Shown one piece after another: positions 1 through 40,058 of a stretch of DNA of 40,058 bases; position 1 is the stretch's first letter; each line of letters starts with the position of its first letter. The stretch comes from Shigella phage VB_Ship_A7: the sequence record MK685668. One strand, written 5' to 3'. Both the position numbers and the translations under genes were made by a program. Under the pieces are notes generated by a model. The model made no database searches, had not been told where the DNA came from, and saw nothing but the letters and a program-made list of their open reading frames with translations.

Positions 1-177
1 TAGAGACACAGAGACACTAAGTTATCCACAGAGTTACCCACAGTTTCACCTAAAGTTATCCACAGAGCCTCTAACCTAGAGTTATCCACAAGTTACTCAC
101 AGAGTTATCCATAGGTTATCCCCAAGTTATCCACAGAGTTACCCACAGGGGGAAACCACTTTGTATTAACTATGAGA
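1..177. repeat. Direct terminal repeat, left copy
   Basis: Bases 1-177 are identical to 39882-40058; T7-type genomes are linear with direct terminal repeats. Contains repeated TTATCCACA-type 9-mers. Confidence 0.9.
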
Positions 178-413
178 TACCCACTCAGATTTTTCTGTAG
201 GATTCTTAAAGGGGGGGTACATCAAGTCTCTCATAAGGTTAACCACAGAGGCTCTATCATAAGGTCAGACCCTGTGAGTGACCCTAAGAGACCCTGTAGA
301 CCATTAAGGAATACATAAGGCTACCTCTTAGAGTTGACTTCTTACAGTGATTATAGGGAAGATGTATATCGACCATAATCACTAAGAGCGCGCACTAAGC
401 GCCAATGAGCAGT

Positions 414-737: not shown

Positions 738-760
738 CTTCCCAATAGTGAGTCGTATTA
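738..760 (-). promoter_or_regulatory. T7-type phage RNAP promoter (phiOR position, downstream of terminase gene)
   Basis: Minus strand reads TAATACGACTCACTATTGGGAAG, a near-perfect match to the T7 promoter TAATACGACTCACTATAGGGAGA. Confidence 0.8.
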
Positions 761-847: not shown

Positions 848-2608
848 TTACCACTCAATGAAGCAGCTAGAGTCTCCGTCGTCCTCGTAGTAGATGTCCA
901 CGCCACCAACATCGTAGCTATGGATAGCATCACCACCAACGGTCTGTTTCTCCATGTGGTGTTCAAGGAACTCAAGGGTCATCTCTTCTTCACCTACACG
1001 GCTGTCCACAAGCATCCCTTCACGCAGGAACTCGATACCCAATGCGATAGCATCAAGTCGGTCATCGTGTGCCACAGCGCCTCGCTCACGGGTCATACGG
1101 GTCATCTGATAGAACGCACTGTAGCGAACATCATGTTTCCCATCAAGGTCACGAGCAGTCTGGTAGTCCTCACGGATAACCTCATCACGAATGACCAGCT
1201 TGTGTGCACCCATCAACGGTTCGATAGTATCGCAGATTCGCATCTCCTTCATGCCTTTAGCACGGATTTCCTCTAAGGCACACTTGTGATGCTTCAGGAG
1301 AATCGGAGAGAAAATCTTACCGAACATACCGTCACCGAAGTTGGACTCGTGAACGACTGTCTGTACCTTCCACTGCTTGGCCTTCTTAGCGAGCTTCTCT
1401 AAGGTAGCATCATCGTAACCACCACGGAACCCACCGACTTCCATCAAGTAGATATAACCGTTAAGTGAGTAGAGGACTGCGTACCCGGTCTCATCCTTAC
1501 CACGACCACTTGGGTCAATGACCAGAATCTTAGACTGATACTCAGCGGTACGAGAAGAGCACGTATGGAACGCATGGATGTCATCACCCTTCAGACCAAC
1601 GTTAGGGAGTTCCTCATTGCGGTTCTGACGGTTCGGCAACCACTGGTAAGACAATGGGGCACGTTCAGGGTCCACAGCGCACACGATAGCGTCACGGAGC
1701 CGTAGCGGGTACTTCTCGGCATCACTAAGGTTCGGGTTAAGCATGAACTGAAGCGTGTAGCCAGCTTTACCGTATTCGAGTTCACGTTCACGGAGGTCAT
1801 CCATATCGAATCGAATAGGGTCAGTAGGTTGACCACGAAGTAACTCAAAGCCCTCATCGTATTCAGCCTTAAGCATCGGAGCCAAGCGGTCCCCATAGTA
1901 GAGAGCCTCAGCATCATTACGTGGATACTGTGCAGGCCAGATTACAGTGCTATACCCTTTGTTATCTTCAAGTTCCTTATAGAGCGTCATCTCGGTTTGA
2001 GGTGTCCCAAGGTAGATAACACGAGAGGTAGGCAGTGGCTTAAGTAACGCAGCAAACTCAGTTACCAACGTCCAGAGCTTCTCACGGGCAGAACTCGTAG
2101 AGCTATTACCGGGAACCTCAACGTCATCTGCGATGATGATGTCAGCACGGCTACCAGTCAACTGACCAGTGATACCTACAGACTTCACAGAGGGTGAGTG
2201 GTCTGGTTTAGCCAATCCAACGTCGAAGCTAATCACGGAGTCACGCTGTCCCGGTCGAGGTTTCAACTCAGCGAGGAATGGCAGCAGGTCAATGATGTTC
2301 TTGATGAAGATGGAGTTAGCATCAGCACGTTCCTTAGAGGCAGACACGATGAGCACCTTAAGTTGAGGGTCACGCCATAAGACCCACACAACGAACGCAC
2401 AGGTGATAAAGGACTTGCCGATACCACGGAACGCCTGAAGGATAAACTTCTTGTGGTCGCCGTTAGCGAGTGTACGTGCCATGTCAATCTGACACTTGGT
2501 TGGTTTAGGTAAGTTCAGAGCCTTCCATAAGACGAACAGGAAGGCCACGAAGTCACCCTTAAGTTGCGCAATGATTAACGCATTCTTAACTTCTTGGGAT
2601 TGTGACAT
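848..2608 (-). CDS. 19: Terminase large subunit (DNA packaging ATPase/nuclease)
   Basis: 586-aa ORF, same length as T7 gp19; ATG at 2608 with SD; last structural gene before the terminal repeat in T7 synteny. Confidence 0.95.
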
Positions 2609-3152: not shown

Positions 3153-3419
3153 TCAATTCAGTGTGTACTTCTCATCTTCAGTGAGACCGTCCGCGCCCAC
3201 TAGGTTCTGGTACTCTTCGAGTCCATCTGCCAGTCCACCAAGGATGTTACGGTCTGGCTGTAACTTGGAGACTTGGAACTTGTGGCGCTCTAACAGTTTC
3301 CCGATAGCGTTGTACAGTTGAGGTGTGCGCTTATCGTCATCCTGAAGGTCTTTCAGCATACGTTGAGCCATCTCAGTGTCCAGCATCTCAAGGAATTGAA
3401 TTAAGGACTTATCAGACAT
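3153..3419 (-). CDS. 18: Terminase small subunit / DNA maturation protein
   Basis: 88 aa beginning MSDKSLIQFLEMLD, matching recalled T7 gp18 (89 aa); synteny. Confidence 0.9.
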   Translation of the reverse strand: MSDKSLIQFLEMLDTEMAQRMLKDLQDDDKRTPQLYNAIGKLLERHKFQVSKLQPDRNILGGLADGLEEYQNLVGADGLTEDEKYTLN

Positions 3420-3674: not shown

Positions 3675-5540
3675 TTACTCCTTGTCTTTCTCCAACTCCT
3701 GAATGCGTGCATCTAGGTTCTTCACAAGCAGCATCAATCCACCGATAATCTGGTTAGGGTCTGGAGACTGCATCCCATCGCTCATAACGTCAACCGCTTC
3801 CGGCCACAGGCGGATTAAGTCCTGTGTGATGAATCCTGCACGAGAACGCTTACCGACTGTCTTAACGGAGCGCCCATGGTTATCAGTCCAAGTTTTGTCC
3901 TTGTACTTATAGGATACCGGAATGTAGGACCGGATGATGTTGAGCATATCGTCTGCATCGCGAACAACCTTGAGGTCCTCTTTCAGACGCCTATCAGACG
4001 AAAACCAGCGGAATCCTACTGCCGAACCATCAACGGTCCCTTCTATGTAGTCCCCACCACGGCCTGTGTAGAGTTGGACCCCTCCAGGCGGCTTGGCGAA
4101 CTGGTACTTATTGTGTAGGAAGTTATACAGGTCCCCACCATAATTGTCCCACAGTCCTCCACGTAAGTTCCCTTCATAGTTAAAATGACACCTACCCATT
4201 CCTGAATAAATGATCTGACCGATTATGTTGTTTCCGGCCTCAATCCTCGCACCATTTTCACCTTGGAAGTGTCTGGCATGGACCTCACCGTTACCAGTGA
4301 ACGTAACGCGTCCTAGCTCGGCAGTGTTCCCAGAGTTTACAGTACGAAAAACAAAACCACCGTCACCTAAACCCTTGTTGCATATGAAGTTCGCTTCGCC
4401 ACTGGATTGCTCGTTCCAAGCAAAATGTAAACCTTGTAGTCCGATGTGCATTGGGCTGTTCTTAATATGAAGTCGCCACATTGAGTTATAAGCATTCCCA
4501 TTAGACTGTTGCCGTAAGCCTCCATTGGCTACCACGATTCCATCGACCAAAATATCCTTCTGTGCCTGTATGTCTCCACCAACAACCAACAAATCACCGA
4601 TGCTCACCCCTTTATCAAATTGACCAGCACCAGTGGAGGTTATGCCACCTCCTACGATGTTTCCGGGCGTTGCAATATTACCTTTAAATGCTACGTGATT
4701 CCCATCAACCGAATCTAAGGCACCAGCAAAGTCATTCATGCTTTCTAACTTGTCAGCCTCTACAATTGCACGGTCGCGTGCCTCTTCTGCCTTGATTCGT
4801 GACTGACGAGCAGCCTCATTATGTGCAGCCGCCTGTCCCTCGGAGGTTAGTGCATCACTAGCAGAGGACGCAGCGTTACTCTCAGCGCTAATAGCACGGT
4901 CGCGTGCAGCCTCAGAACTGACAGCAGCACTTTCAGAGCGGATACCATATTGCTCAGAATGAACTGCGAAATTGTTAGCTTTAGTTGCTTCCTGTTGAGC
5001 ACGGTCAGCTTCACTCTTGGCACGGTCAGCTTCTGTACGTGCCTTAACGTAGGACTGATATGCCCCATCGTTCCACTGCTTGACTGTGCGCAAGTTTAGA
5101 GCATCATACTCACCAACCGGGTCAGCCACGTTAACAATACGGCGACCACGAGCATCTAAGTGCCCATCATTATTGACACCAATAGTATCAGCAGTAAGGT
5201 CGCGTGCTTCCTCGGCAACGTGAAGCGTTTGAATCTGTGAAATGTTCAGGTCATATGCGCGAAGGATTGAGCCATCAGCAAAGTCAACCAGACGGTCACT
5301 CGCAGAGGTAAAGCGGCGAATCTCAATCATCTGGTAACCATCAGCATCGGTCCACGCACGGGACGTTGTAATTTGAGTCTTAGTGGTAAAGCGATAGTCC
5401 TGATTAAGAACAAGTTCCTTACGGTCTTTACCAATTAGTGTTACTTTTACGAACTTACGTGCCAGATACTCAAAGGTAATTGTGAAGTCCACGGCACCAT
5501 TAAGTGGGTAAGTACGCACAGTGGAAATTTTGTTAGCCAT
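3675..5540 (-). CDS. 17: Tail fibre protein: conserved N-terminal tail-attachment domain, divergent distal region, C-terminal intramolecular-chaperone-like domain
   Basis: 621 aa; the first ~150 aa (MANKISTVRTYPLNG...GVNNDGHLDARGRRIVN) match the T7 gp17 N-terminus; the C-terminal ~107 aa begin SSDRRLKEDL, the signature of self-cleaving chaperone (peptidase S74-like) domains. Confidence 0.9.
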   Translation of the reverse strand: MANKISTVRTYPLNGAVDFTITFEYLARKFVKVTLIGKDRKELVLNQDYRFTTKTQITTSRAWTDADGYQMIEIRRFTSASDRLVDFADGSILRAYDLNISQIQTLHVAEEARDLTADTIGVNNDGHLDARGRRIVNVADPVGEYDALNLRTVKQWNDGAYQSYVKARTEADRAKSEADRAQQEATKANNFAVHSEQYGIRSESAAVSSEAARDRAISAESNAASSASDALTSEGQAAAHNEAARQSRIKAEEARDRAIVEADKLESMNDFAGALDSVDGNHVAFKGNIATPGNIVGGGITSTGAGQFDKGVSIGDLLVVGGDIQAQKDILVDGIVVANGGLRQQSNGNAYNSMWRLHIKNSPMHIGLQGLHFAWNEQSSGEANFICNKGLGDGGFVFRTVNSGNTAELGRVTFTGNGEVHARHFQGENGARIEAGNNIIGQIIYSGMGRCHFNYEGNLRGGLWDNYGGDLYNFLHNKYQFAKPPGGVQLYTGRGGDYIEGTVDGSAVGFRWFSSDRRLKEDLKVVRDADDMLNIIRSYIPVSYKYKDKTWTDNHGRSVKTVGKRSRAGFITQDLIRLWPEAVDVMSDGMQSPDPNQIIGGLMLLVKNLDARIQELEKDKE

Positions 5541-5611: not shown

Positions 5612-8600
5612 TTACTTCTTGTCAGACTTGAGGTGAACACCATTGGCCTCATAGAACTTGATGAGCATCTGTTGGGAGATTGGGTCGTTAGGAATCATCT
5701 CTCGGTGGGCGTTCATTAAGCCAGTCATCATCTCACGCTCGGTCACTTTGTTTGGAGCCGTAAGGACACCATAAGCATTTCGACCAGCAGCAAGGGTAGC
5801 ACCAGCGAACCCAAGAGCAGGAACCTGTTCACCAATAGCGCCCATAATGGAATCACCCATGTCACGAGAAGTTACCGCCTTGTTCCGTTCTTTCTTATCC
5901 TCTCCTTTAGGGAGAATCGTAGAGCGGACCATGAGACCTTGGTCGTAACCAGCAGCACCCATAGCGAAGTTTGCGATACTCAGAGGCGACCCAAGGTGTG
6001 AACTTCGGGAAGCCGCAGCGTAGGCAATCATCTTAGGGTCCAGAGCTTTCTTCAGGTAGTCCTTCTGTTGCTCTTTAGGAAGACCAGCAGCCTTCAAGTG
6101 GGCCTGTGCCACATAGTAGGAGCCAGCGATACCACCAGAGATTGCATAGGTCAGCGCCATATCCATAGCACGATGGTTCTTAAAGGCTTCGTGACCGGAG
6201 CGGATAAACTTAGAGTTCATCGACTTGATTACGAAAGACTTGAACTGAAGGACCAACTTAGCGGCAGCACCAAACGCATGGGAATCCTGAAGTGAAACCT
6301 TGTTAGGTCTCAGCATTGTCTCATCAGCAACCTTATCAGCCAGTCGCCACAGGTCCATAGCTCGCGGGTCATTAGCCAGCTTACGCTTGTCCTTGAAGGT
6401 GTACTTGCCGTCAGCACCTTGAGTGACGTTCTCACGGATGAGGTTCTGAATGCCTTCCCACTGTTCCTTTGAGATACTCGCAGATTTCAGCATGTCGCCT
6501 TTAATCCACTTGTTGGCACCCTTACCAGTAATGGCATGAGTTACCACATCTCCCATGACACCCTGACGGGCCATATCCAGAATGTAGTTGGAAGTACCGT
6601 TGAGGAACTTAGTGAACGGAGAGCGAGCAGCCAACTCTTGAGTGGTGTGCTTAACCGTACCAACAACCTTAGCGACAGCATCAGGTGTATCAGTAGACTC
6701 ACGGAGTCGCTGAATGATGTCTTGACGAGTCGGTCGGATTAACTGGTCGAACTCTTTACCAAACACCATAGAGTGGAGTTCTTTGAGTTCACTACCAGAG
6801 ACTGGCTTGTTACGGAACGCTAGGTCACGCAGAGCGGGAATGCCATGCAGCATCGCACGGGTGTTACCCTTCGACAATAGACCAGCGATTTCAGTTAGGT
6901 TCTGCAAGCCCATATATGCGTTCTTCGTAAAGAAGGACATATCGGATAGAGAGCGAACCATAGTGTCACCTACGGTATCCTGATTGCGTCGAGCACGACC
7001 AGTGACAATCTTAACGAAATCCTTAAGTGCTTCCACTTCACCTTTCATTGTGCCTTTACCTTCAGACTTCTTATCAAGAGCCATAATAGCGTCCTTGAGT
7101 TCAGCAGTAGTCTTGCCTGTGCCTCCCATGATAGCAATATCACCATCAACACGGCGGTCATATGCTGGCATCACATGCTTCATATCGAAGTCACGAAGGT
7201 CATTCACAGAGAACTGTTGACCATTCGGTAGAGTGATTGGCACGTCAGAATCAAACAGGTTACGGGCTTCAAGGAATGAGTTGTTCTCAATCCCAACGAG
7301 ACCCTCAATGTTATCGTCAATGACACTTGAAGAGTTGAACTCATCGGTCTTCGCAATACCATAAGCCTTGTCCATAGCGTACTTCTCAGCCATCTGACTA
7401 AGCATAGCCTCTTCGTCTACCTTTGGTTCCACCTTCTCGTCTGTGCCAAACTTCTGGCGCTCTGAAGGTTTAGCCGGGGTGGAGTCGTAGGCTTTACGGA
7501 ATGCTTGACCATCGGGGGTACGCACGCCACCAACTGATTCGTCTGTTCCACGGTACACGTAGTCAGGACTCTCAGTCTCAGCGATTCGGTACATCTCGGT
7601 AGCGATGCCTTTGCGGCGGTACTTCTCGGACACCTCAAGACTTGGATTATGCCACACGTCTCCCTCACGTTTAGCGAACTCTACGCTGCCAATGTGGTCT
7701 CCCTTTTTGGTGAACACATCCACCGCGAACTCAGCACCATCAGTTGTCTTAGCTGTGTAGTAGACAAAATCACCATCCACCTTGTAAGGAGTCTCACCAG
7801 AGTAGTCTCGCTTACCAGCGAAGTAATCACCTTGGAGTTCGCCATTAGAGACCTTAGTGATGCTAGTTGAGTTACCACCAGTCACCAGTGAGTCAGGCAT
7901 TACCGGAGCAGCCTCAGCACCTCTCAGGAAGTTCTCAGCTTCAGCTTGTGCACCTTTGGCAGTAGAGGCGGCTTCTTCAGCTTCGGCGGTGGCTTTGGTG
8001 ATTCTATCTTGGACCTTAGCAGCCTGTCCTTTCATGTGGTCGAGACGCTCTGTGTTAATACGGACGTGAGACTTCTGGGTCTCAATCATCTTCTTCCGGC
8101 TCTCAATCTTAACAGGAATGGTTTTGCTATTAGGTTTAGCAGCTAGTTTTTCTTCCAACTCCTTCAACTTAGCCTCATGCGAAGCCAGTCTGTCCTTGGA
8201 GTTCTGGAGTTTCCTTTCACGGTCCGCAACTCGCTTCTCAGCGTTGGTCAGAACGTCTTTTAGTTCCGCTACCTTATCACTTGCCCGTGTAGCTGCATCG
8301 TCCAGTTTCATCCGGTAACTGGCTGTGTCTACAGACTCTTGGCTTCTGAGGAAGTTCTCAGTGTCAGCCGCAAGTTTGGCATCAGCTTCAGCTTTGGAGA
8401 AAACGTCACTGTTAACCTGTTTAAGGTATTCATCAATACGGGCCTTGACTTCAGGACGCGCATGATATGATGCCATCAGGCTTGCAGCAACTGCTTCCTG
8501 TAAACCATCAGTGCCCCCAAGAGCCTGTGAGTACACCTGCTTGGCTTCCCGCGAGTACACATGAGGAACGTAAGTCCCTTTGTGACGACTGTTAGGGAAG

Positions 8601-22262: not shown

Positions 22263-22349
22263 TTACACACTCTTAGCTGTAAACGCGGCCCACACCATAG
22301 AGAAGGATACGACTGTGAACATCACGAGCGCAACTGTTCCGGCGACCAT
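22263..22349 (-). CDS. Mini-ORF, 28-aa hydrophobic peptide (T7 gene 6.3 position)
   Basis: ATG at 22349 with AAGGAGA 7 nt upstream, overlapping the last codons of gene 6; hand translation MVAGTVALVMFTVVSFSMVWAAFTAKSV. T7 gp6.3 is 37 aa. Confidence 0.45.
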   Translation of the reverse strand: MVAGTVALVMFTVVSFSMVWAAFTAKSV

Positions 22350-23236
22350 AGGTAAATCTCCTTGTCGATAAAGTTGTACTCTTCGAAACGAAGGATGCGA
22401 GCCATCTGGCCCTGCTTAATGATTTCCTGCTCGGTCATCCCAGCTTTCGCGCCAAGTGTCACAATCGCTTCCCACAAGGTTCGGTCTCCCATGTCAACCT
22501 TCTTCCATTCGAGGACTGTCTGACCCTTACGGGCACCAGACTTGAAAGTTTTCTCAACCTGTTCAAAGGCATACGGGTTCTCCAGCCACTCAGCGGTAGT
22601 CTCGCCCCAGCCCGGAATGCCACCATAGCCATCTGTCAAGTCACCTTTAATGGTCTGATAGATGTGCCAGTAGTCGGCAGTCGTCTGGTCTTGAGTCAAG
22701 ATGTTACCAGTAGTGCACCACAAGAAGTCACAATCAGGGATGGTCTTAAAGTCCTTATCACAGGAGACCAGCACAGCCTTCTTGAAACCAAAATGTTTAG
22801 CACCAGACCCAATGATTCCCATTACGTCATCACCCTCTAAGCGAGGCTCAAGGATAGACGTCCAGTCCTCACAGGCTTGAACACGCTCGACGAACGCACG
22901 GTAGCCTACAGGCTTACGGGATGCCTTACGGTTCTCCTTGTAGGTTGGGTCCACCAGTTCCTTACGCCAGTTCACAGAGTCAGTGAAGGCCAACACGATG
23001 GGTGCATCACGCCAAGCCTTCTTACGGCTCGCATAGGACTTGATAGAGTCAACCAGAATGTTCCATGCTTTCCCGTGGTCACACTCTAAGGTCCACACAT
23101 CATCTCCCCAATCGGTCTCTACTTCGCTTGCAGCCATCGACTGGAATACCAGCCAGTCACCATCCATTACGAGAACACCCTTATCGGATTTACCTTGGCG
23201 AATCTCATAGAACTCCTTCAGTGTAAGAGCGCTCAT
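22322..23236 (-). CDS. 6: 5'-3' exonuclease
   Basis: Internal ATG at 23236 with GGGAGG SD gives 304 aa starting MSALTLKEFYEIRQGKSDKGVLVMDGDWLVFQ (T7 gp6 is 300 aa); ATGA overlap with the preceding gene. Confidence 0.95.
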   Translation of the reverse strand: MSALTLKEFYEIRQGKSDKGVLVMDGDWLVFQSMAASEVETDWGDDVWTLECDHGKAWNILVDSIKSYASRKKAWRDAPIVLAFTDSVNWRKELVDPTYKENRKASRKPVGYRAFVERVQACEDWTSILEPRLEGDDVMGIIGSGAKHFGFKKAVLVSCDKDFKTIPDCDFLWCTTGNILTQDQTTADYWHIYQTIKGDLTDGYGGIPGWGETTAEWLENPYAFEQVEKTFKSGARKGQTVLEWKKVDMGDRTLWEAIVTLGAKAGMTEQEIIKQGQMARILRFEEYNFIDKEIYLWSPEQLRS

Positions 23237-23442
23237 ACACAACCTCCCATCTTCTTCAGGAAACGGACACCAGAACCTGTTACTTCCCAAGCGCCAGCAT
23301 TACGCCCATCGACTGATAGGCAAGAGATATGGCCACGACTCGCAGCCTCAGCCACAAGTGACGCATTGTTGCGCACATAGTTAGACTGAAAGGTCTTAGG
23401 GCAGCTTTTGATAGCCGCCAGTACACGTAGATAATCACCCAT
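23233..23442 (-). CDS. 5.7: T7 gp5.7-like protein
   Basis: 69 aa, MGDYLRVLAAIKSCPKTFQSNYVRNNASLVAEAASRGHISCL, matches recalled T7 gp5.7 (69 aa). Confidence 0.75.
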   Translation of the reverse strand: MGDYLRVLAAIKSCPKTFQSNYVRNNASLVAEAASRGHISCLSVDGRNAGAWEVTGSGVRFLKKMGGCV

Positions 23443-26577: not shown

Positions 26578-26626
26578 TACAAAAGTTAATCACTAAGGCC
26601 ATCCGTTAAGATGACCTTTAGTTTAA
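26578..26626 (-). promoter_or_regulatory. RNase III-type processing hairpin (R4.7 position)
   Basis: Shares the GGCC...GACC(T)TGAGTTTA core with 5 other sites in the window; resembles T7 RNase III sites. Confidence 0.6.
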
Positions 26627-26631
26627 CTCTT

Positions 26632-33247: not shown

Positions 33248-33293
33248 CAAAAGTTAATCACAAAGGCCAACCTTTCGGATGACCTAGAGTTTA
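33248..33293 (-). promoter_or_regulatory. RNase III-type processing hairpin (R1.3 position)
   Basis: AAAGGCC...GACCTAGAGTTTA core shared with the other sites; between the phi1.3 promoter and the ligase gene. Confidence 0.6.
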
Positions 33294-33295
33294 CC

Positions 33296-33318
33296 TCTCG
33301 CAATAGTGAGTCGTATTA
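33296..33318 (-). promoter_or_regulatory. T7-type phage promoter (phi1.3 position)
   Basis: Minus strand reads TAATACGACTCACTATTGCGAGA. Confidence 0.75.
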
Positions 33319-37891: not shown

Positions 37892-38084
37892 AGCTGGAAC
37901 CTATCTTGTTAATCTTACGGTTGGTGCGCAGTTCACGCTTAAGGCGTTCGATTCGTTGTTTCATTGCGAAGCCATCAGGTGTGCAAACTGTAGCGCCGTT
38001 ATTGGTGTGGATAGGCATGACGTAGTGTTTCAGCATGATCGTAATCCCGTGCGTTGTTTTAAAGTGATAATCATGAAAGGCCAC
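37875..38084 (-). CDS. Small early protein (T7/T3 gene 0.6 position)
   Basis: ORF-track start is GTG inside the RNase III hairpin; an in-frame ATG at 38036 would give 53 aa (MLKHYVMPIHT...). Start is uncertain. Confidence 0.45.
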   Translation of the reverse strand: MAFHDYHFKTTHGITIMLKHYVMPIHTNNGATVCTPDGFAMKQRIERLKRELRTNRKINKIGSSYDRTH

Positions 38085-38108
38085 TCATATTGAGCGACCT
38101 TGAGTTTA
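38064..38108 (-). promoter_or_regulatory. RNase III-type processing hairpin
   Basis: AAAGGCCACTCATATTGAGCGACCTTGAGTTTA core. Confidence 0.6.
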
Positions 38109-38112
38109 TCGC

Positions 38113-38571
38113 TTATCGTACTTGCCAGCGGCGACCGAACTCATCAATCGTGAAGCAACCTTGAAGCGGTACGCCTTTAGGCACTTCTTGGAAACTACCC
38201 GGCAAACGTTCAGCCTTATAGCCGTCAATGCCTTGAGCGTACACTAAACCAGCCGTGTGAGTTTGTGACTTATAGACCAGTACGCAATCTTGTTCAAACT
38301 CATTACATGCCAGACGTGCGACCGCTATTGCTTGAGATTTGTTGGCACAGCGTACACGAACAGTCAGTTCCTCAGTCGGTGCACTTGCGATAGCCTCCCG
38401 ATAACAACCAGTCAAGTCTGTAGACTCAACGCTACCGTATTCAAGCGGTGCATTACGCAGTGAGTTAACCATGTGACGATGACGACTCATATTTACTTCG
38501 TCGCAGAGGTTAGAGCGGAACGCTGATACCAGTACATAGAATACGTTTGCAGGTTCGTTAGTGTAAATCAT
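38113..38571 (-). CDS. S-adenosyl-L-methionine hydrolase/lyase-like protein (T3 gene 0.3-type SAMase)
   Basis: 152 aa, the length of T3 SAMase; the sequence matches my recollection of T3 gp0.3, which I cannot verify without a search. Confidence 0.6.
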   Translation of the reverse strand: MIYTNEPANVFYVLVSAFRSNLCDEVNMSRHRHMVNSLRNAPLEYGSVESTDLTGCYREAIASAPTEELTVRVRCANKSQAIAVARLACNEFEQDCVLVYKSQTHTAGLVYAQGIDGYKAERLPGSFQEVPKGVPLQGCFTIDEFGRRWQVR

Positions 38572-38595: not shown

Positions 38596-38640
38596 GTGAT
38601 AATCATAAAGGCCACTCGCTGGGAGCGACCTTGAGTCTAT
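38596..38640 (-). promoter_or_regulatory. RNase III-type processing hairpin
   Basis: AAAGGCCACTCGCTGGGAGCGACCTTGAGTCTA; 10-bp stem with loop CCAGC on the minus strand. Confidence 0.6.
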
Positions 38641-38984
38641 CACTCAGCAGACTCTTCGACTTCCTCAAGATACTCGTTCAGTAAGTCTTCTGCGTCCTCC
38701 CAAAGGTCAATCGTTAATTGCTCATAGATACGCGCTTGCAGGATACGGATTACGTCCTTGGTGTCCGGCATCAGACCAGAGTCCTCGAACTCAAGGTCAA
38801 TGCCCTCGCTAGCCATTACGCTGAAAACGTCGCTGTAATAGTGCGGAACAGCATTATCAGCCGCCATATGCACTGCATCGTGCAGGTCATCAGTGTCACG
38901 GATGTCATCATAACGGATGTTTTCTTTCAGCATTTCGTAAGCGTGGTCGAAAACGTTGTTGTAAGTCATGTTAGACATAGCCAT
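38640..38984 (-). CDS. ocr: Ocr, DNA-mimic anti-restriction protein (overcome classical restriction)
   Basis: 114 aa; [37 protein letters not shown]...[18 protein letters not shown] is near-identical to recalled T7 gp0.3; very acidic. Confidence 0.95.
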
Positions 38985-39479: not shown

Positions 39480-39508
39480 ATAGTCTCATAAGCCATTATC
39501 AATGTCAA
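39480..39508 (-). promoter_or_regulatory. Candidate host sigma70 early promoter (first, A1-like)
   Basis: Minus strand TTGACA (39508-39503), 17-bp spacer, GACTAT (39485-39480); T7 A1 has TTGACT-17-GATACT. Confidence 0.5.
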
Positions 39509-39513
39509 CACTT

Positions 39514-39577
39514 AATCTTAAAGAATCTTAAAGCCTCTCTTTAAGTGGTCTTATAGTCTCTTTAAGTGGTCTTATAG
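39514..39577. repeat. Tandem direct repeats: 10 bp x2 (AATCTTAAAG) and 21 bp x2 (TCTCTTTAAGTGGTCTTATAG)
   Basis: Exact tandem copies at 39514-39533 and 39536-39577, between the phiOL-type promoter and the first sigma70 promoter. Confidence 0.85.
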
Positions 39578-39608
39578 AGAGGATGACCATTAGCGGTGTT
39601 TCTCCCTC

Positions 39609-39631
39609 TCTCTCAATAGTGAGTCATATTA
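39609..39631 (-). promoter_or_regulatory. T7-type phage promoter (phiOL position, left-end promoter of the native map)
   Basis: Minus strand reads TAATATGACTCACTATTGAGAGA. Confidence 0.7.
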
Positions 39632-39773
39632 AAGGCTATTGACTCAAAGCCACCTTTAAGGCACTATAGGCACTCAGTCGATTCTCCTTGTCTCTCTCTC
39701 ATTACTCAGAGACTGCTAAACAGAGTAAGATAATGAATCCCCTTTGTGACGAAGCCTGCTGGTCACTGATAAA

Positions 39774-39857
39774 CATAAGGCACTGACTGAAGGTTAACAT
39801 AAGGATAGGCAGCCATAAGGTGATACTCTAAGGGTCACATAAGGTGATGACATAAGG
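39774..39857. repeat. Array of 5 CATAAGG heptamers (CCTTATG on the coding strand) adjacent to the terminal repeat
   Basis: Copies at 39774, 39798, 39814, 39838 and 39851; occupies the position of the T7 CCTAAAG-type short repeats next to the terminal repeat. Confidence 0.8.
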
Positions 39858-39881
39858 AGATACTCAATGGTCACTTACAGA

Positions 39882-40058
39882 TAGAGACACAGAGACACTA
39901 AGTTATCCACAGAGTTACCCACAGTTTCACCTAAAGTTATCCACAGAGCCTCTAACCTAGAGTTATCCACAAGTTACTCACAGAGTTATCCATAGGTTAT
40001 CCCCAAGTTATCCACAGAGTTACCCACAGGGGGAAACCACTTTGTATTAACTATGAGA
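39882..40058. repeat. Direct terminal repeat, right copy
   Basis: Identical to 1-177. Confidence 0.9.

What the first reader, a model, noticed from the sequence alone, without database searches (positions are those of the whole stretch)
1..177. Terminal repeat contains a phased array of DnaA-box 9-mers
Perfect TTATCCACA (the E. coli DnaA box consensus, TTATNCACA) occurs at 22-30, 56-64, 82-90 and 127-135. One-mismatch copies occur at 34-42, 93-101, 105-113, 116-124 and 139-147. All are in the same orientation, and from 82 to 147 the units fall every 11-12 bp, about one helical turn. The array is present in both copies of the repeat (also 39903-40028). T7 has different short repeats in its terminal repeat. 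This may simply be the lineage-specific packaging or concatemer-junction repeat, but four exact DnaA boxes in 120 bp is far above chance.
Basis: seen in the sequence. Interest (0 to 1): 0.6.

Follow-up and report, generated by a model that had tools for sequence, protein, structure and literature searches.

The report
DnaA-box array in phage terminal repeat
Both 177-bp terminal repeats of this T7-like phage carry a phased array of perfect binding sites for DnaA, the host's replication initiator. The same sites recur in the terminal repeats of several unrelated T7-like lineages, so the phage genome ends probably use this host protein, which has not been described for this group.

Summary
The window is a complete Berlinvirus (T7-like) genome written as a reverse complement, with an exact 177-bp direct terminal repeat (TR). 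TTATCCACA occurs four times per TR and nowhere else in 40 kb (0.3 expected). The repeating unit is 11-12 bp, GTTAYCCACAGR, in nine head-to-tail copies. It has the same G...G flanks as E. coli oriC R1 and R4.

The array is not the generic T7-group repeat. T7, BA14, Kvp1, FE44 and P694 share the TR ends but have a different interior. P694 has 99% identical terminase subunits and no boxes.

Perfect boxes do recur inside sequence-verified TRs elsewhere:
- Enterobacter phage phiEap-1: 5 boxes in a 195-bp TR.
- Klebsiella Molineuxvirinae phages: 4-6 boxes in a roughly 290-bp TR.

They also recur at the equivalent junction of two uncultured gut T7-like sub-lineages, in opposite orientations. In the Klebsiella group, box columns are far more conserved than the rest of the TR (1/45 versus 45/196 variable columns).

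My best reading is a swappable, non-essential TR cassette that recruits host DnaA to the genome end and concatemer junction. Binding and the actual role are untested. The closest precedent is the set of DnaA boxes in the phage T5 terminal repeat. I found no report for T7-like phages.

The parts
1..177 (.). Direct terminal repeat, copy at the genome's conventional right end (the window is reverse-complemented).
   Evidence: Identical to 39882-40058. Its outer 30 bp and inner 21 bp are conserved with BA14, Kvp1, FE44, P694 and T7-type TRs.
39882..40058 (.). Direct terminal repeat, copy at the conventional left end. In T7 this is the end that enters the cell first.
   Evidence: for the repeat. 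Orientation follows from the 12 phage promoters on the - strand and the genes on the - strand. Entry polarity comes from established T7 biology, not from this analysis.
20..148 (+). Phased DnaA-box array: nine head-to-tail 11-12-bp units GTTAYCCACAGR. Exact boxes are at 22, 56, 82 and 127. Near-boxes are at 34, 93, 105, 116 and 139.
39901..40029 (+). The same array in the second TR copy. Exact boxes are at 39903, 39937, 39963 and 40008.
82..147 (+). Uninterrupted six-unit tandem block with 2-3-bp gaps. This is the predicted site of a DnaA oligomer.
   Evidence: Which units are perfect differs among the window, nasanit and P483, so copies turn over.
148..177 (-). Conserved terminal element. Its reverse complement is TCTCATAGTTAATACAAAGTGGTTTCCCCC, which matches the T7-group left-end sequence.
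   Evidence: Conserved in Berlinviruses with and without boxes. T7 has TCTCACAGTGTACGG...GTTCCCCC.
1..21 (-). Conserved inner TR boundary. Its reverse complement is CTTAGTGTCTCTGTGTCTCTA.
   Evidence: T7 has ...GAGTGTCTCTCTGTGTCCCT.
39874..39886 (-). Junction motif CTCTATCTGTAAG, the counterpart of the T7 concatemer-junction ATCTGTT pause signal, directly following the TR.
   Evidence: Sequence. BA14 annotates a 'concatemeric junction' at the same place. The pause function is from the T7 literature (own knowledge).
39609..39631 (-). Phage-RNAP promoter, phiOL-like (TAATATGACTCACTATTGAGAGA).
   Evidence: Member of the 12-copy promoter family. BA14 annotates phiOL at the same relative position.
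738..760 (-). Phage-RNAP promoter, phiOR-like (TAATACGACTCACTATTGGGAAG).
   Evidence: phiOR is annotated in BA14 and Kvp1.
178..340 (.). Short CATAAGG/CTTATG-type repeats flanking the TR on the right-end side (equivalent to T7 SRR). It includes a tenth near-box, TTAACCACA, at 239-247.
39700..39881 (.). Short CATAAGG-type repeats flanking the TR on the left-end side (equivalent to T7 SRL).
   Evidence: 39814-39863, period 13.
848..2608 (-). Large terminase gp19. Context only; it does not co-vary with the array.
3153..3419 (-). Small terminase gp18. Context only; it does not co-vary with the array.

Best explanation
The interior of the terminal repeat is a swappable, non-essential cassette that serves as a landing pad for the host initiator protein DnaA.

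**Shown here**
- Each TR copy has 4 consensus and 5 near-consensus DnaA boxes.
- All boxes are head-to-tail and sit on one face of the helix, 11-12 bp centre to centre.
- The flanks (G-TTATCCACA-G) match those of oriC R1 and R4.
- The same 9-mer is independently present in, or next to, the TRs of several other T7-like lineages, and is selectively conserved in one of them.

**Inferred from DnaA biochemistry**
- DnaA, in either nucleotide form, occupies the four consensus boxes at nanomolar concentration as soon as a TR is in the cytoplasm.
- ATP-DnaA then fills the weaker neighbouring boxes cooperatively. This would give roughly a six-protomer oligomer on 82-147, a pair on 22-42 and a monomer on 56.

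**Inferred and least certain**
- This nucleoprotein complex acts as a host-supplied architectural factor at the genome end and concatemer junction, the way IHF serves lambda cosB.
- It would hold or organise the first-entering end, and bend or destabilise the duplex next to the conserved terminal 30 bp.
- That could modestly improve an end-linked step: early DNA entry or retention, concatemer formation, or TR duplication and cutting.
- It does not replace the phage's own replication or packaging machinery.
For: 1. The boxes are exact and confined to the TR.
2. oriC R1 is cttGTTATCCACAGgg and R4 is cagaGTTATCCACAGtag, read directly from MG1655. The flanks match the phage unit.
3. The array does not co-vary with terminase. 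P694 has gp19 99.5% and gp18 98.9% identical, the same TR ends, but a box-free interior. This argues against a terminase-specific site.
4. Recurrence with different contexts:
   - Four Berlinviruses share the array: the window, P483, nasanit and vB_SEqdws-315.
   - phiEap-1 has an exact 195-bp TR with 5 perfect boxes separated by 12-21 bp of T7-type CACCTAAAG-like units.
   - Five Klebsiella Molineuxvirinae phages have 4-6 perfect boxes in a homologous TR. It is an exact 292-bp repeat in ZK1.
   - Uncultured gut T7-like sub-lineages A and B carry 2-10 boxes at the homologous spot between gene 19 and the early genes, in opposite orientations. There are almost none elsewhere in the 7-12-kb loci.
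5. Purifying selection. In the Klebsiella alignment 1 of 45 box columns varies by substitution, against 45 of 196 for the rest of the TR (Fisher p = 6e-4). Spacers differ freely.
6. In the Berlinvirus trio the three isolated boxes are invariant (0/27 columns).
7. Plasmid-borne DnaA boxes are known to bind and titrate DnaA in vivo. datA has only 2 consensus and 4 one-misfit boxes (PMC5835720).
8. Precedent: T5-like phages have conserved DnaA boxes in the non-coding part of the left terminal repeat (bioRxiv 10.1101/866236).
Against: - No binding or phenotype data exist.
- T7-group replication and packaging are known to be independent of host DnaA (own knowledge).
- The closest relatives do well without the boxes, so any benefit is accessory.
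- Within the three aligned Berlinvirus TRs, box cores overall are no more conserved than other TR positions (17/81 versus 14/96 variable columns).
- Two positionally conserved units carry T4-to-C (TTACCCACA), a change expected to weaken DnaA binding.
- The junction lacks the other parts of oriC-, datA- or DARS-type modules. There is no IHF consensus, no 13-mer unwinding element and no GATC in 1,081 bp.
- Box orientation is not conserved between gut sub-lineages A and B, which excludes strictly polar mechanisms.
- All T7-group TRs contain some phased short repeat, and the boxes sit within a looser YCCACAG repeat theme.
- The selection test uses five related sequences and an alignment that anchors on the repeats.
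Confidence: 0.55

Rival explanations
1. The array is a lineage-specific packaging or junction repeat. It would be this sub-lineage's version of the short phased repeats found in every T7-group TR. It would be read by a phage factor or act through DNA shape, and its identity to the DnaA box would be coincidental.
For: T7 (CCTAAAG units) and BA14-type TRs (CCTTATG units, about 11-12-bp phasing) have repeats at the same place. There is no excess conservation of box cores in the Berlinvirus trio. The boxes are embedded in a looser YCCACAG repeat family.
Against: The exact 9-mer recurs in at least four other lineages with unrelated spacers, spacings (11-12 versus 21-30 bp) and orientation. Both terminase subunits are about 99% identical in P694, which has a different interior. 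In the Klebsiella group the 9-mers are conserved while the spacers vary. The flanks match oriC R1 and R4.
Confidence: 0.15
2. The array is a DnaA sink. The boxes would soak up free DnaA as phage DNA amplifies, in the manner of datA or plasmid titration. This would block new host initiations or derepress DnaA-controlled genes such as nrdAB, as a host-takeover device.
For: Each TR has more consensus boxes than datA. There are about 200 DnaA monomers per origin, and plasmid-borne boxes titrate DnaA in vivo (PMC5835720). A hundred genome copies would exceed the cellular DnaA pool (inference). Orientation independence fits this idea.
Against: It gives no reason for the sites to lie in the TR in every lineage. 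T7-group phages shut off and degrade the host chromosome anyway (own knowledge), so the benefit would come late and be small. Titration needs many copies and therefore acts after the infection is already decided.
Confidence: 0.12
3. The array is a neutral by-product. A single chance box would have been amplified by replication slippage in a repeat-prone region. DnaA may bind, but without consequence for the phage.
For: Unit number and the identity of the perfect copies turn over between the window, nasanit and P483. The cassette is dispensable in relatives.
Against: Independent recurrence of the same 9-mer and substitution-level conservation are not expected under neutrality.
Confidence: 0.1
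4. The array is an auxiliary DnaA-dependent replication origin or duplex-opening element at the genome end.
For: The polarity AT-rich end, then C-run, then TGTGGATAA array (conventional orientation) mirrors the unwinding element, GC cluster and R1 of oriC. In gut lineage A the box clusters flank an AT-rich stretch and sigma70-like promoters. Other phages with T7-like gp4 and gp5 have box arrays 3-4 kb upstream of the helicase gene.
Against: There is no 13-mer unwinding element, IHF site or GATC here. The Klebsiella-phage TR is GC-rich around its boxes. T7-type origins are primed by the phage RNA polymerase and need no DnaA (own knowledge).
Confidence: 0.08

Closest known systems
DnaA boxes in the left terminal repeat (injection-stop region) of T5-like phages (Heusterspreute et al. 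1987, as cited by Davison, bioRxiv 10.1101/866236)
   Same: Both have consensus TTATCCACA-type boxes in the non-coding part of a direct terminal repeat of a virulent enterobacterial phage whose DNA enters stepwise. In both, the boxes are conserved across relatives and the function is untested.
   Different: T5 has about 8 boxes in pairs 3 bp apart, embedded in inverted repeats, several kb from the end of a 10-kb repeat. Here there are nine direct units at 11-12 bp in a 177-bp repeat, 30 bp from the physical end, with no inverted-repeat architecture. The phage families are unrelated.
DnaA-oligomerisation arrays of E. coli oriC (R1/R4-anchored arrays), datA and DARS
   Same: The 9-mer, the G...G flanks of R1 and R4, the direct orientation and the 2-3-bp gaps between sites are the same.
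   Different: Here there is no unwinding element, IHF site or GATC cluster. There are far more consensus-strength sites than in any chromosomal locus. The array lies on a linear phage end.
T7 terminal repeat and its flanking short repeats (Dunn and Studier 1983; own knowledge)
   Same: Shared features are an exact direct repeat of 160-195 bp, conserved outer sequences, an ATCTGT junction signal directly after it, and a short phased repeat inside and beside it.
   Different: T7, T3-like and BA14-type TRs contain no DnaA box. Here the interior has been replaced by box units.
IHF site in lambda cosB (a host architectural protein assisting terminase)
   Same: A host DNA-binding protein site is embedded in the phage packaging or end region, and is dispensable in some relatives.
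   Different: The host protein differs. There are many sites here rather than one. A role in packaging is not shown here.
Tandem DnaA boxes at plasmid and phage-plasmid origins (for example P1 oriR; own knowledge)
   Same: Both have several consensus boxes in tandem on a mobile replicon.
   Different: Those origins sit next to iterons and a Rep gene and are needed for theta replication. Neither is present here.

Membership tests
E. coli-type DnaA-box cluster | Matches to the 9-mer TTATNCACA | tested here: met
   Each TR has 4 exact TTATCCACA and 5 copies with 1-2 mismatches.
E. coli-type DnaA-box cluster | Clustered, same-orientation sites with about 2-3-bp gaps that allow head-to-tail oligomers | tested here: met
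   Spacings of 11, 12, 11, 11, 12 bp, all on the + strand.
E. coli-type DnaA-box cluster | Specific binding by DnaA | not testable with these tools
   Needs a gel shift, footprint or ChIP.
oriC/datA/DARS2-type functional module | Accompanying IHF site, AT-rich 13-mer unwinding element and GATC cluster | tested here: not met
   None found in the 1,081-bp junction.
T7-group direct terminal repeat | Exact direct repeat at both genome ends | tested here: met
   1-177 equals 39882-40058 at 100% identity.
T7-group direct terminal repeat | Conserved end sequences (TCTCA.AG... and ...CTCTGTGTC..) and an ATCTGT junction signal after the repeat | tested here: met
T5-type injection-stop DnaA-box set | Box pairs 3 bp apart inside inverted repeats IRC/IRD | tested here: not met
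   Only direct repeats are present, with no such inverted repeats.
T5-type injection-stop DnaA-box set | Location in the non-coding part of the first-entering terminal repeat | tested here: met
   The TR is non-coding. The entering end is inferred from T7 polarity.
Terminase small-subunit recognition repeats (cosB/pac-type) | Co-variation of the repeat sequence with the terminase that reads it | tested here: not met
   gp18 is 98.9% and gp19 99.5% identical in P694, whose TR interior is different.
Iteron-type replication origin | Iterons next to a cognate Rep or initiator gene | tested here: not met
   There is no gene in or beside the TR other than 19.5 and terminase.

The most novel reading that the evidence does not exclude
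Host DnaA would be a recurrently co-opted factor at the physical ends of virulent phages with direct terminal repeats. This would cover several T7-like lineages and T5-like phages, and possibly others. A 'terminal-repeat DnaA landing pad' would then be a general, horizontally exchangeable module. It could control an end-linked step such as retention or anchoring of the first-entering DNA, junction opening for repeat duplication, or concatemer synapsis. That would reveal a host dependency in phages long regarded as independent of the host initiator.
Probability: 0.35. Interest if true: 0.8.

Novelty: new variant of a known kind. Interest (0 to 1): 0.66.

Why it matters
T7-like phages are the textbook example of a phage that brings its own transcription, replication and packaging machinery. 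A conserved, recurrent array of top-affinity sites for the host initiator in their terminal repeats points to an unrecognised host-factor input at the genome ends.

Nature also supplies the control. P694 and this phage have nearly identical terminases but different TR interiors, so the hypothesis can be tested directly by TR swaps.

Three further consequences follow.
- It would give independent weight to the untested T5 proposal that terminal-repeat DnaA boxes matter.
- It bears on engineering T7-type vectors and therapeutic phages, through possible DnaA titration and TR design.
- It bears on annotation, because these arrays are currently annotated as small hypothetical proteins or not at all.

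Tried and rejected
1. **Link to loss of the RecBCD inhibitor gp5.9.** The window, P483 and nasanit lack gene 5.9 while P694 has it. BA14 also lacks it and has no boxes, so I rejected this link.
2. **A gene shared only by box-carrying Berlinviruses.** A 250-bp identity profile against P483, nasanit and P694 shows that only the TR itself is consistently specific.
3. **Terminase co-variation.** Rejected.
4. **More Berlinvirus-type arrays in public collections.**
   - The same pattern in viral contigs gave nothing related.
   - A 23-mer in genome contigs gave 0 hits.
   - The TR against E. coli genomes gave no match.
5. **Proof that the gut-lineage arrays lie inside a physical terminal repeat.** The contigs end inside tandem repeats, so I could only infer this from the T7-like layout.
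6. **Rfam.** No RNA family anywhere in the window.
7. **Sigma70 or terminator signals in the TR.** None found.
8. **Literature.**
   - No paper in the library combines 'DnaA box' with Autographiviridae.
   - No paper links DnaA boxes to the terminal repeats of T7-like phages or podoviruses.
   - A search for the T7 pacB literature returned mainly PacBio hits.
   - Statements about T7 packaging signals therefore rest on my own knowledge.

Full report
**Observation.** The 9-mer TTATCCACA occurs eight times in the window. Four copies are in 1-177 (22, 56, 82, 127) and four at the same offsets in 39882-40058. All are on the + strand. Only 0.30 are expected from dinucleotide shuffles, and none of 100 shuffles comes near 8. 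Allowing one mismatch gives 23 sites against 9.1 expected. Sixteen of these lie in the two repeat copies, and a seventeenth lies at 239-247, just outside the first copy. The two end segments are an exact 177-bp direct repeat. The true repeating unit is 11-12 bp, GTTAYCCACAGR, with nine head-to-tail copies per repeat. Six of them (82-147) are uninterrupted, at spacings of 11, 12, 11, 11 and 12 bp. Tandem Repeats Finder finds the same array: 20-148, period 11, consensus AGTTATCCACAG. One detail of the finding needs correction. The copy at 93-101 (TTACTCACA) is two mismatches from TTATCCACA. The four exact copies are also amplified copies of one unit, so the interesting question is why the unit is a DnaA box.

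**What the window is.** It is a complete T7-like genome of the genus Berlinvirus (Studiervirinae).
- The nearest records are Yersinia phage WW1 (94% over the middle 20 kb) and E. coli phages P483, nasanit and P694.
[quoted passage not shown] Twelve copies of the phage promoter (TAATACGACTCACTATTGGG-type) and all the large genes are on the - strand.
- In conventional orientation the repeat reads TCTCATAGTTAATACAAAGTGGTTTCCCCC, then the array as TGTGGATAA units, then CTTAGTGTCTCTGTGTCTCTA. It is followed directly by TCTGTAAG.
- These outer parts are the T7-group hallmarks. T7 itself reads TCTCACAGTGTACGG...GTTCCCCC...GTGTCTCTCTGTGTCCCT, and BA14 annotates the 'concatemeric junction' at the same place.
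- The repeat is non-coding. It holds no Rfam family and no sigma70-like promoter or terminator.

**Close relatives.**
- The array is shared, with 3-5 exact boxes each, by P483, nasanit and vB_SEqdws-315.
- Which units are perfect differs between these phages, and nasanit has lost one unit, so the copies turn over.
- Other Berlinviruses (BA14, Kvp1, FE44, PcCB251, P694) keep the same outer TR sequences. Their interior is different, is built from CCTTATG-type units and contains no DnaA box.
- T7 has none either. Among 80 Studiervirinae loci fetched around gene 19, only P483 has a cluster.
- P694 has a large terminase 99.5% identical and a small terminase 98.9% identical to the window's. The array therefore does not co-vary with the packaging enzyme. 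It behaves as an exchangeable interior cassette.
- A 250-bp identity profile found no other genome segment consistently specific to the box-carrying phages.
- All box-carrying Berlinviruses lack the RecBCD inhibitor gene 5.9. This suggested a link, but BA14 also lacks the gene and has no boxes.

**Recurrence elsewhere.** This is the decisive evidence.
1. Enterobacter phage phiEap-1 (genus Eapunavirus) has an exact 195-bp terminal repeat with five perfect boxes. They have the same orientation relative to the genes as here. They are 21-30 bp apart and alternate with T7-type CACCTAAAG-like units. The repeat is followed by TATCTGTTAG.
2. Klebsiella phage ZK1 (subfamily Molineuxvirinae) has an exact 292-bp terminal repeat with six perfect boxes, four of them at 21-bp spacing. 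Kp7, F5M1D, PA45-9 and S16a carry the homologous region with 4-5 boxes.
3. An uncultured human-gut T7-like lineage has terminase about 54% identical in protein to the window's. Its only INPHARED relative is an unannotated faecal contig.
   - It carries 2-10 boxes about 550-900 bp downstream of gene 19 and almost none elsewhere in the 7-12-kb loci.
   - The layout there is T7-like. The order is gene 19, CCCTTATGGG repeats, TCTTGTGA..., TTCCCCC..., boxes, GCCCCCGTGGGGG, boxes, TTATCTGT, short repeats, sigma70 promoters, early genes.
   - Sub-lineage A has the boxes as TTATCCACA on the coding strand. Sub-lineage B has them as TGTGGATAA at the homologous position.
   - More distant members have none.

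Across these lineages the spacers, spacing and even orientation differ. Only the 9-mer is constant.

**Selection.** In an alignment of the five Klebsiella-phage repeats, one of 45 box columns shows a substitution. The figures are 45 of 196 for the rest of the repeat and 39 of 123 upstream (Fisher p = 6e-4). The spacers between boxes differ freely. There are caveats: the five sequences are related, and the alignment anchors on the repeats. In the three aligned Berlinvirus repeats, box cores overall are not better conserved than other positions (17/81 versus 14/96 variable columns). The three isolated boxes at 22, 56 and 82 are invariant (0/27).

**Resemblance to authentic DnaA sites.**
- Read from E. 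coli MG1655, oriC R1 is cttGTTATCCACAGgg and R4 is cagaGTTATCCACAGtag. Both have the flanks of the phage unit.
- Across 25 units from three phages, the preceding G, TTA and the final A are invariant. Positions 5-8 are nearly so, and the 2-3-bp spacer is variable.
- Head-to-tail sites separated by 2-3 bp is the arrangement of the DnaA-oligomerisation arrays of oriC (own knowledge).
- Each repeat holds more consensus boxes than datA, which has two consensus and four one-misfit boxes. Plasmid-borne boxes are known to titrate DnaA in vivo, and there are about 200 DnaA monomers per origin (PMC5835720).
- The other parts of an oriC-, datA- or DARS-type module are missing. There is no IHF consensus, no 13-mer unwinding element and no GATC in the 1,081-bp junction.
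- Two positionally conserved units carry T4-to-C, which should weaken binding.

**Mechanism.** The sequence facts are shown. DnaA occupancy is inferred from biochemistry and seems very likely for four R1/R4-grade sites. That selection keeps the boxes for DnaA binding seems likely given the recurrence and the conservation. What the complex does is open.

My best reading is that it works as a host-supplied architectural factor at the genome end and concatemer junction, comparable to IHF at lambda cosB. It would hold or organise the first-entering end and bend or destabilise the duplex beside the conserved terminal 30 bp. It would give a modest, non-essential advantage in an end-linked step. My confidence in this overall reading is 0.55.

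The rivals are:
- a lineage-specific packaging repeat with a coincidental match (0.15), disfavoured by the recurrence and by the lack of terminase co-variation;
- a DnaA sink for host takeover (0.12), which gives no reason for the sites to lie in the terminal repeat;
- a neutral slippage product (0.10), disfavoured by the conservation;
- an auxiliary DnaA-dependent opening element or origin (0.08). The polarity of AT-rich end, C-run and TGTGGATAA, and the promoters and AT-rich DNA between the gut-lineage clusters, are suggestive. But no unwinding element is present here, and the Klebsiella repeats are GC-rich.

The orientation flip between gut sub-lineages argues against strictly polar mechanisms.

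**Comparison with what is known.** The closest precedent is phage T5. Its left terminal repeat contains conserved DnaA boxes in the injection-stop region. Davison proposed, without a test, that membrane-bound DnaA halts DNA entry there (bioRxiv 10.1101/866236). The T5 layout is different: box pairs 3 bp apart inside inverted repeats, kilobases from the end. The present array is therefore analogous to it, not a member of that set. It is a member of the T7-group terminal repeats by every sequence criterion tested. It also meets the sequence criteria for a DnaA-box cluster, but not those of a complete oriC- or datA-type module. I found no paper in the searchable library linking DnaA boxes to T7-like phages or Autographiviridae. 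Public records leave these arrays unannotated or call them small hypothetical proteins.

**Verdict.** The DnaA-box reading is favoured over the generic-repeat reading. The feature turns out to be a recurrent, apparently undescribed property of several T7-like lineages that infect Enterobacterales. Function is untested. I rate it a new variant of a known kind, with interest 0.66.

Noticed in passing
window 1-40058: The window is a whole Berlinvirus genome in reverse-complement orientation. No INPHARED record exceeds about 94-95% identity over long stretches, so it is probably a distinct species-level phage.
   Followed up: partly
window 3750-5000 and 7500-8000: The distal tail-fibre gene (3675-5540) and part of a large internal-virion-protein gene have no nucleotide match in P483, nasanit or P694. 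These look like mosaic replacements relevant to host range.
   Followed up: no
window 23233-23442 / 22322-23290: Gene 5.7 runs directly into gene 6, so the RecBCD-inhibitor gene 5.9 is absent. The same holds in P483, nasanit and BA14, while P694, WW1, Kvp1 and the Yersinia pestis phages have it.
   Followed up: yes
window 26580-26630 / 33248-33298 and 38076-38122 / 38607-38653: There are two pairs of 47-51-nt direct repeats containing AAAGGCCA...GACCTT..AGTTTA. They may be RNase III-type processing sites as in T7.
   Followed up: no
window 39501-40058 plus 178-700 (junction): There is no GATC at all in 1,081 bp around the terminal repeat.
   Followed up: no
L243 8200-8540; L047 and L058 100-200; L216 last 300 nt: In gut T7-like sub-lineage A, divergent near-consensus sigma70 promoters (TTGACA-17-TATAAT and TTGACA...TATACT) sit between and beside the DnaA-box clusters. 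In L243 the unit of -10 element plus boxes is triplicated.
   Followed up: partly
L207/L274 and L229/L242: Two 76-kb IMG/VR contigs each contain two different T7-like genomes (terminases 99% and 75%, or 88% and 98%, identical to the query). They are probably assembly chimeras joined through the shared terminal region.
   Followed up: no
L040, L108, L057, L019, L364, L331, L028: These viral contigs encode gp4-like helicase-primase and gp5-like polymerase, about 35% identical in protein to the window's. Each has a DnaA-box array 3-4 kb upstream of the helicase gene. L093 (terminase 42% identical) has two boxes 150 bp after its terminase gene.
   Followed up: partly
INPHARED hits: Tandem DnaA-box-like arrays also hit the extreme ends of Arthrobacter phages Tiff81 and Seahorse and Vibrio phages BD1 and BD5. 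They also hit non-coding regions of many gokushovirus-type Microviridae.
   Followed up: no
IMG/VR scans: Phased tandem DnaA boxes of the form (A)GTTATCCACAG(G/A) are common in viral contigs of many kinds. Examples are L082, L061, L035, L065, L036 and L107, with 6-8 boxes in 200 bp.
   Followed up: partly
L001 (nasanit) 1494-1862; L516 953-1282: Public annotations place small 'hypothetical protein' genes over the terminal-repeat array. These are almost certainly spurious calls.
   Followed up: no
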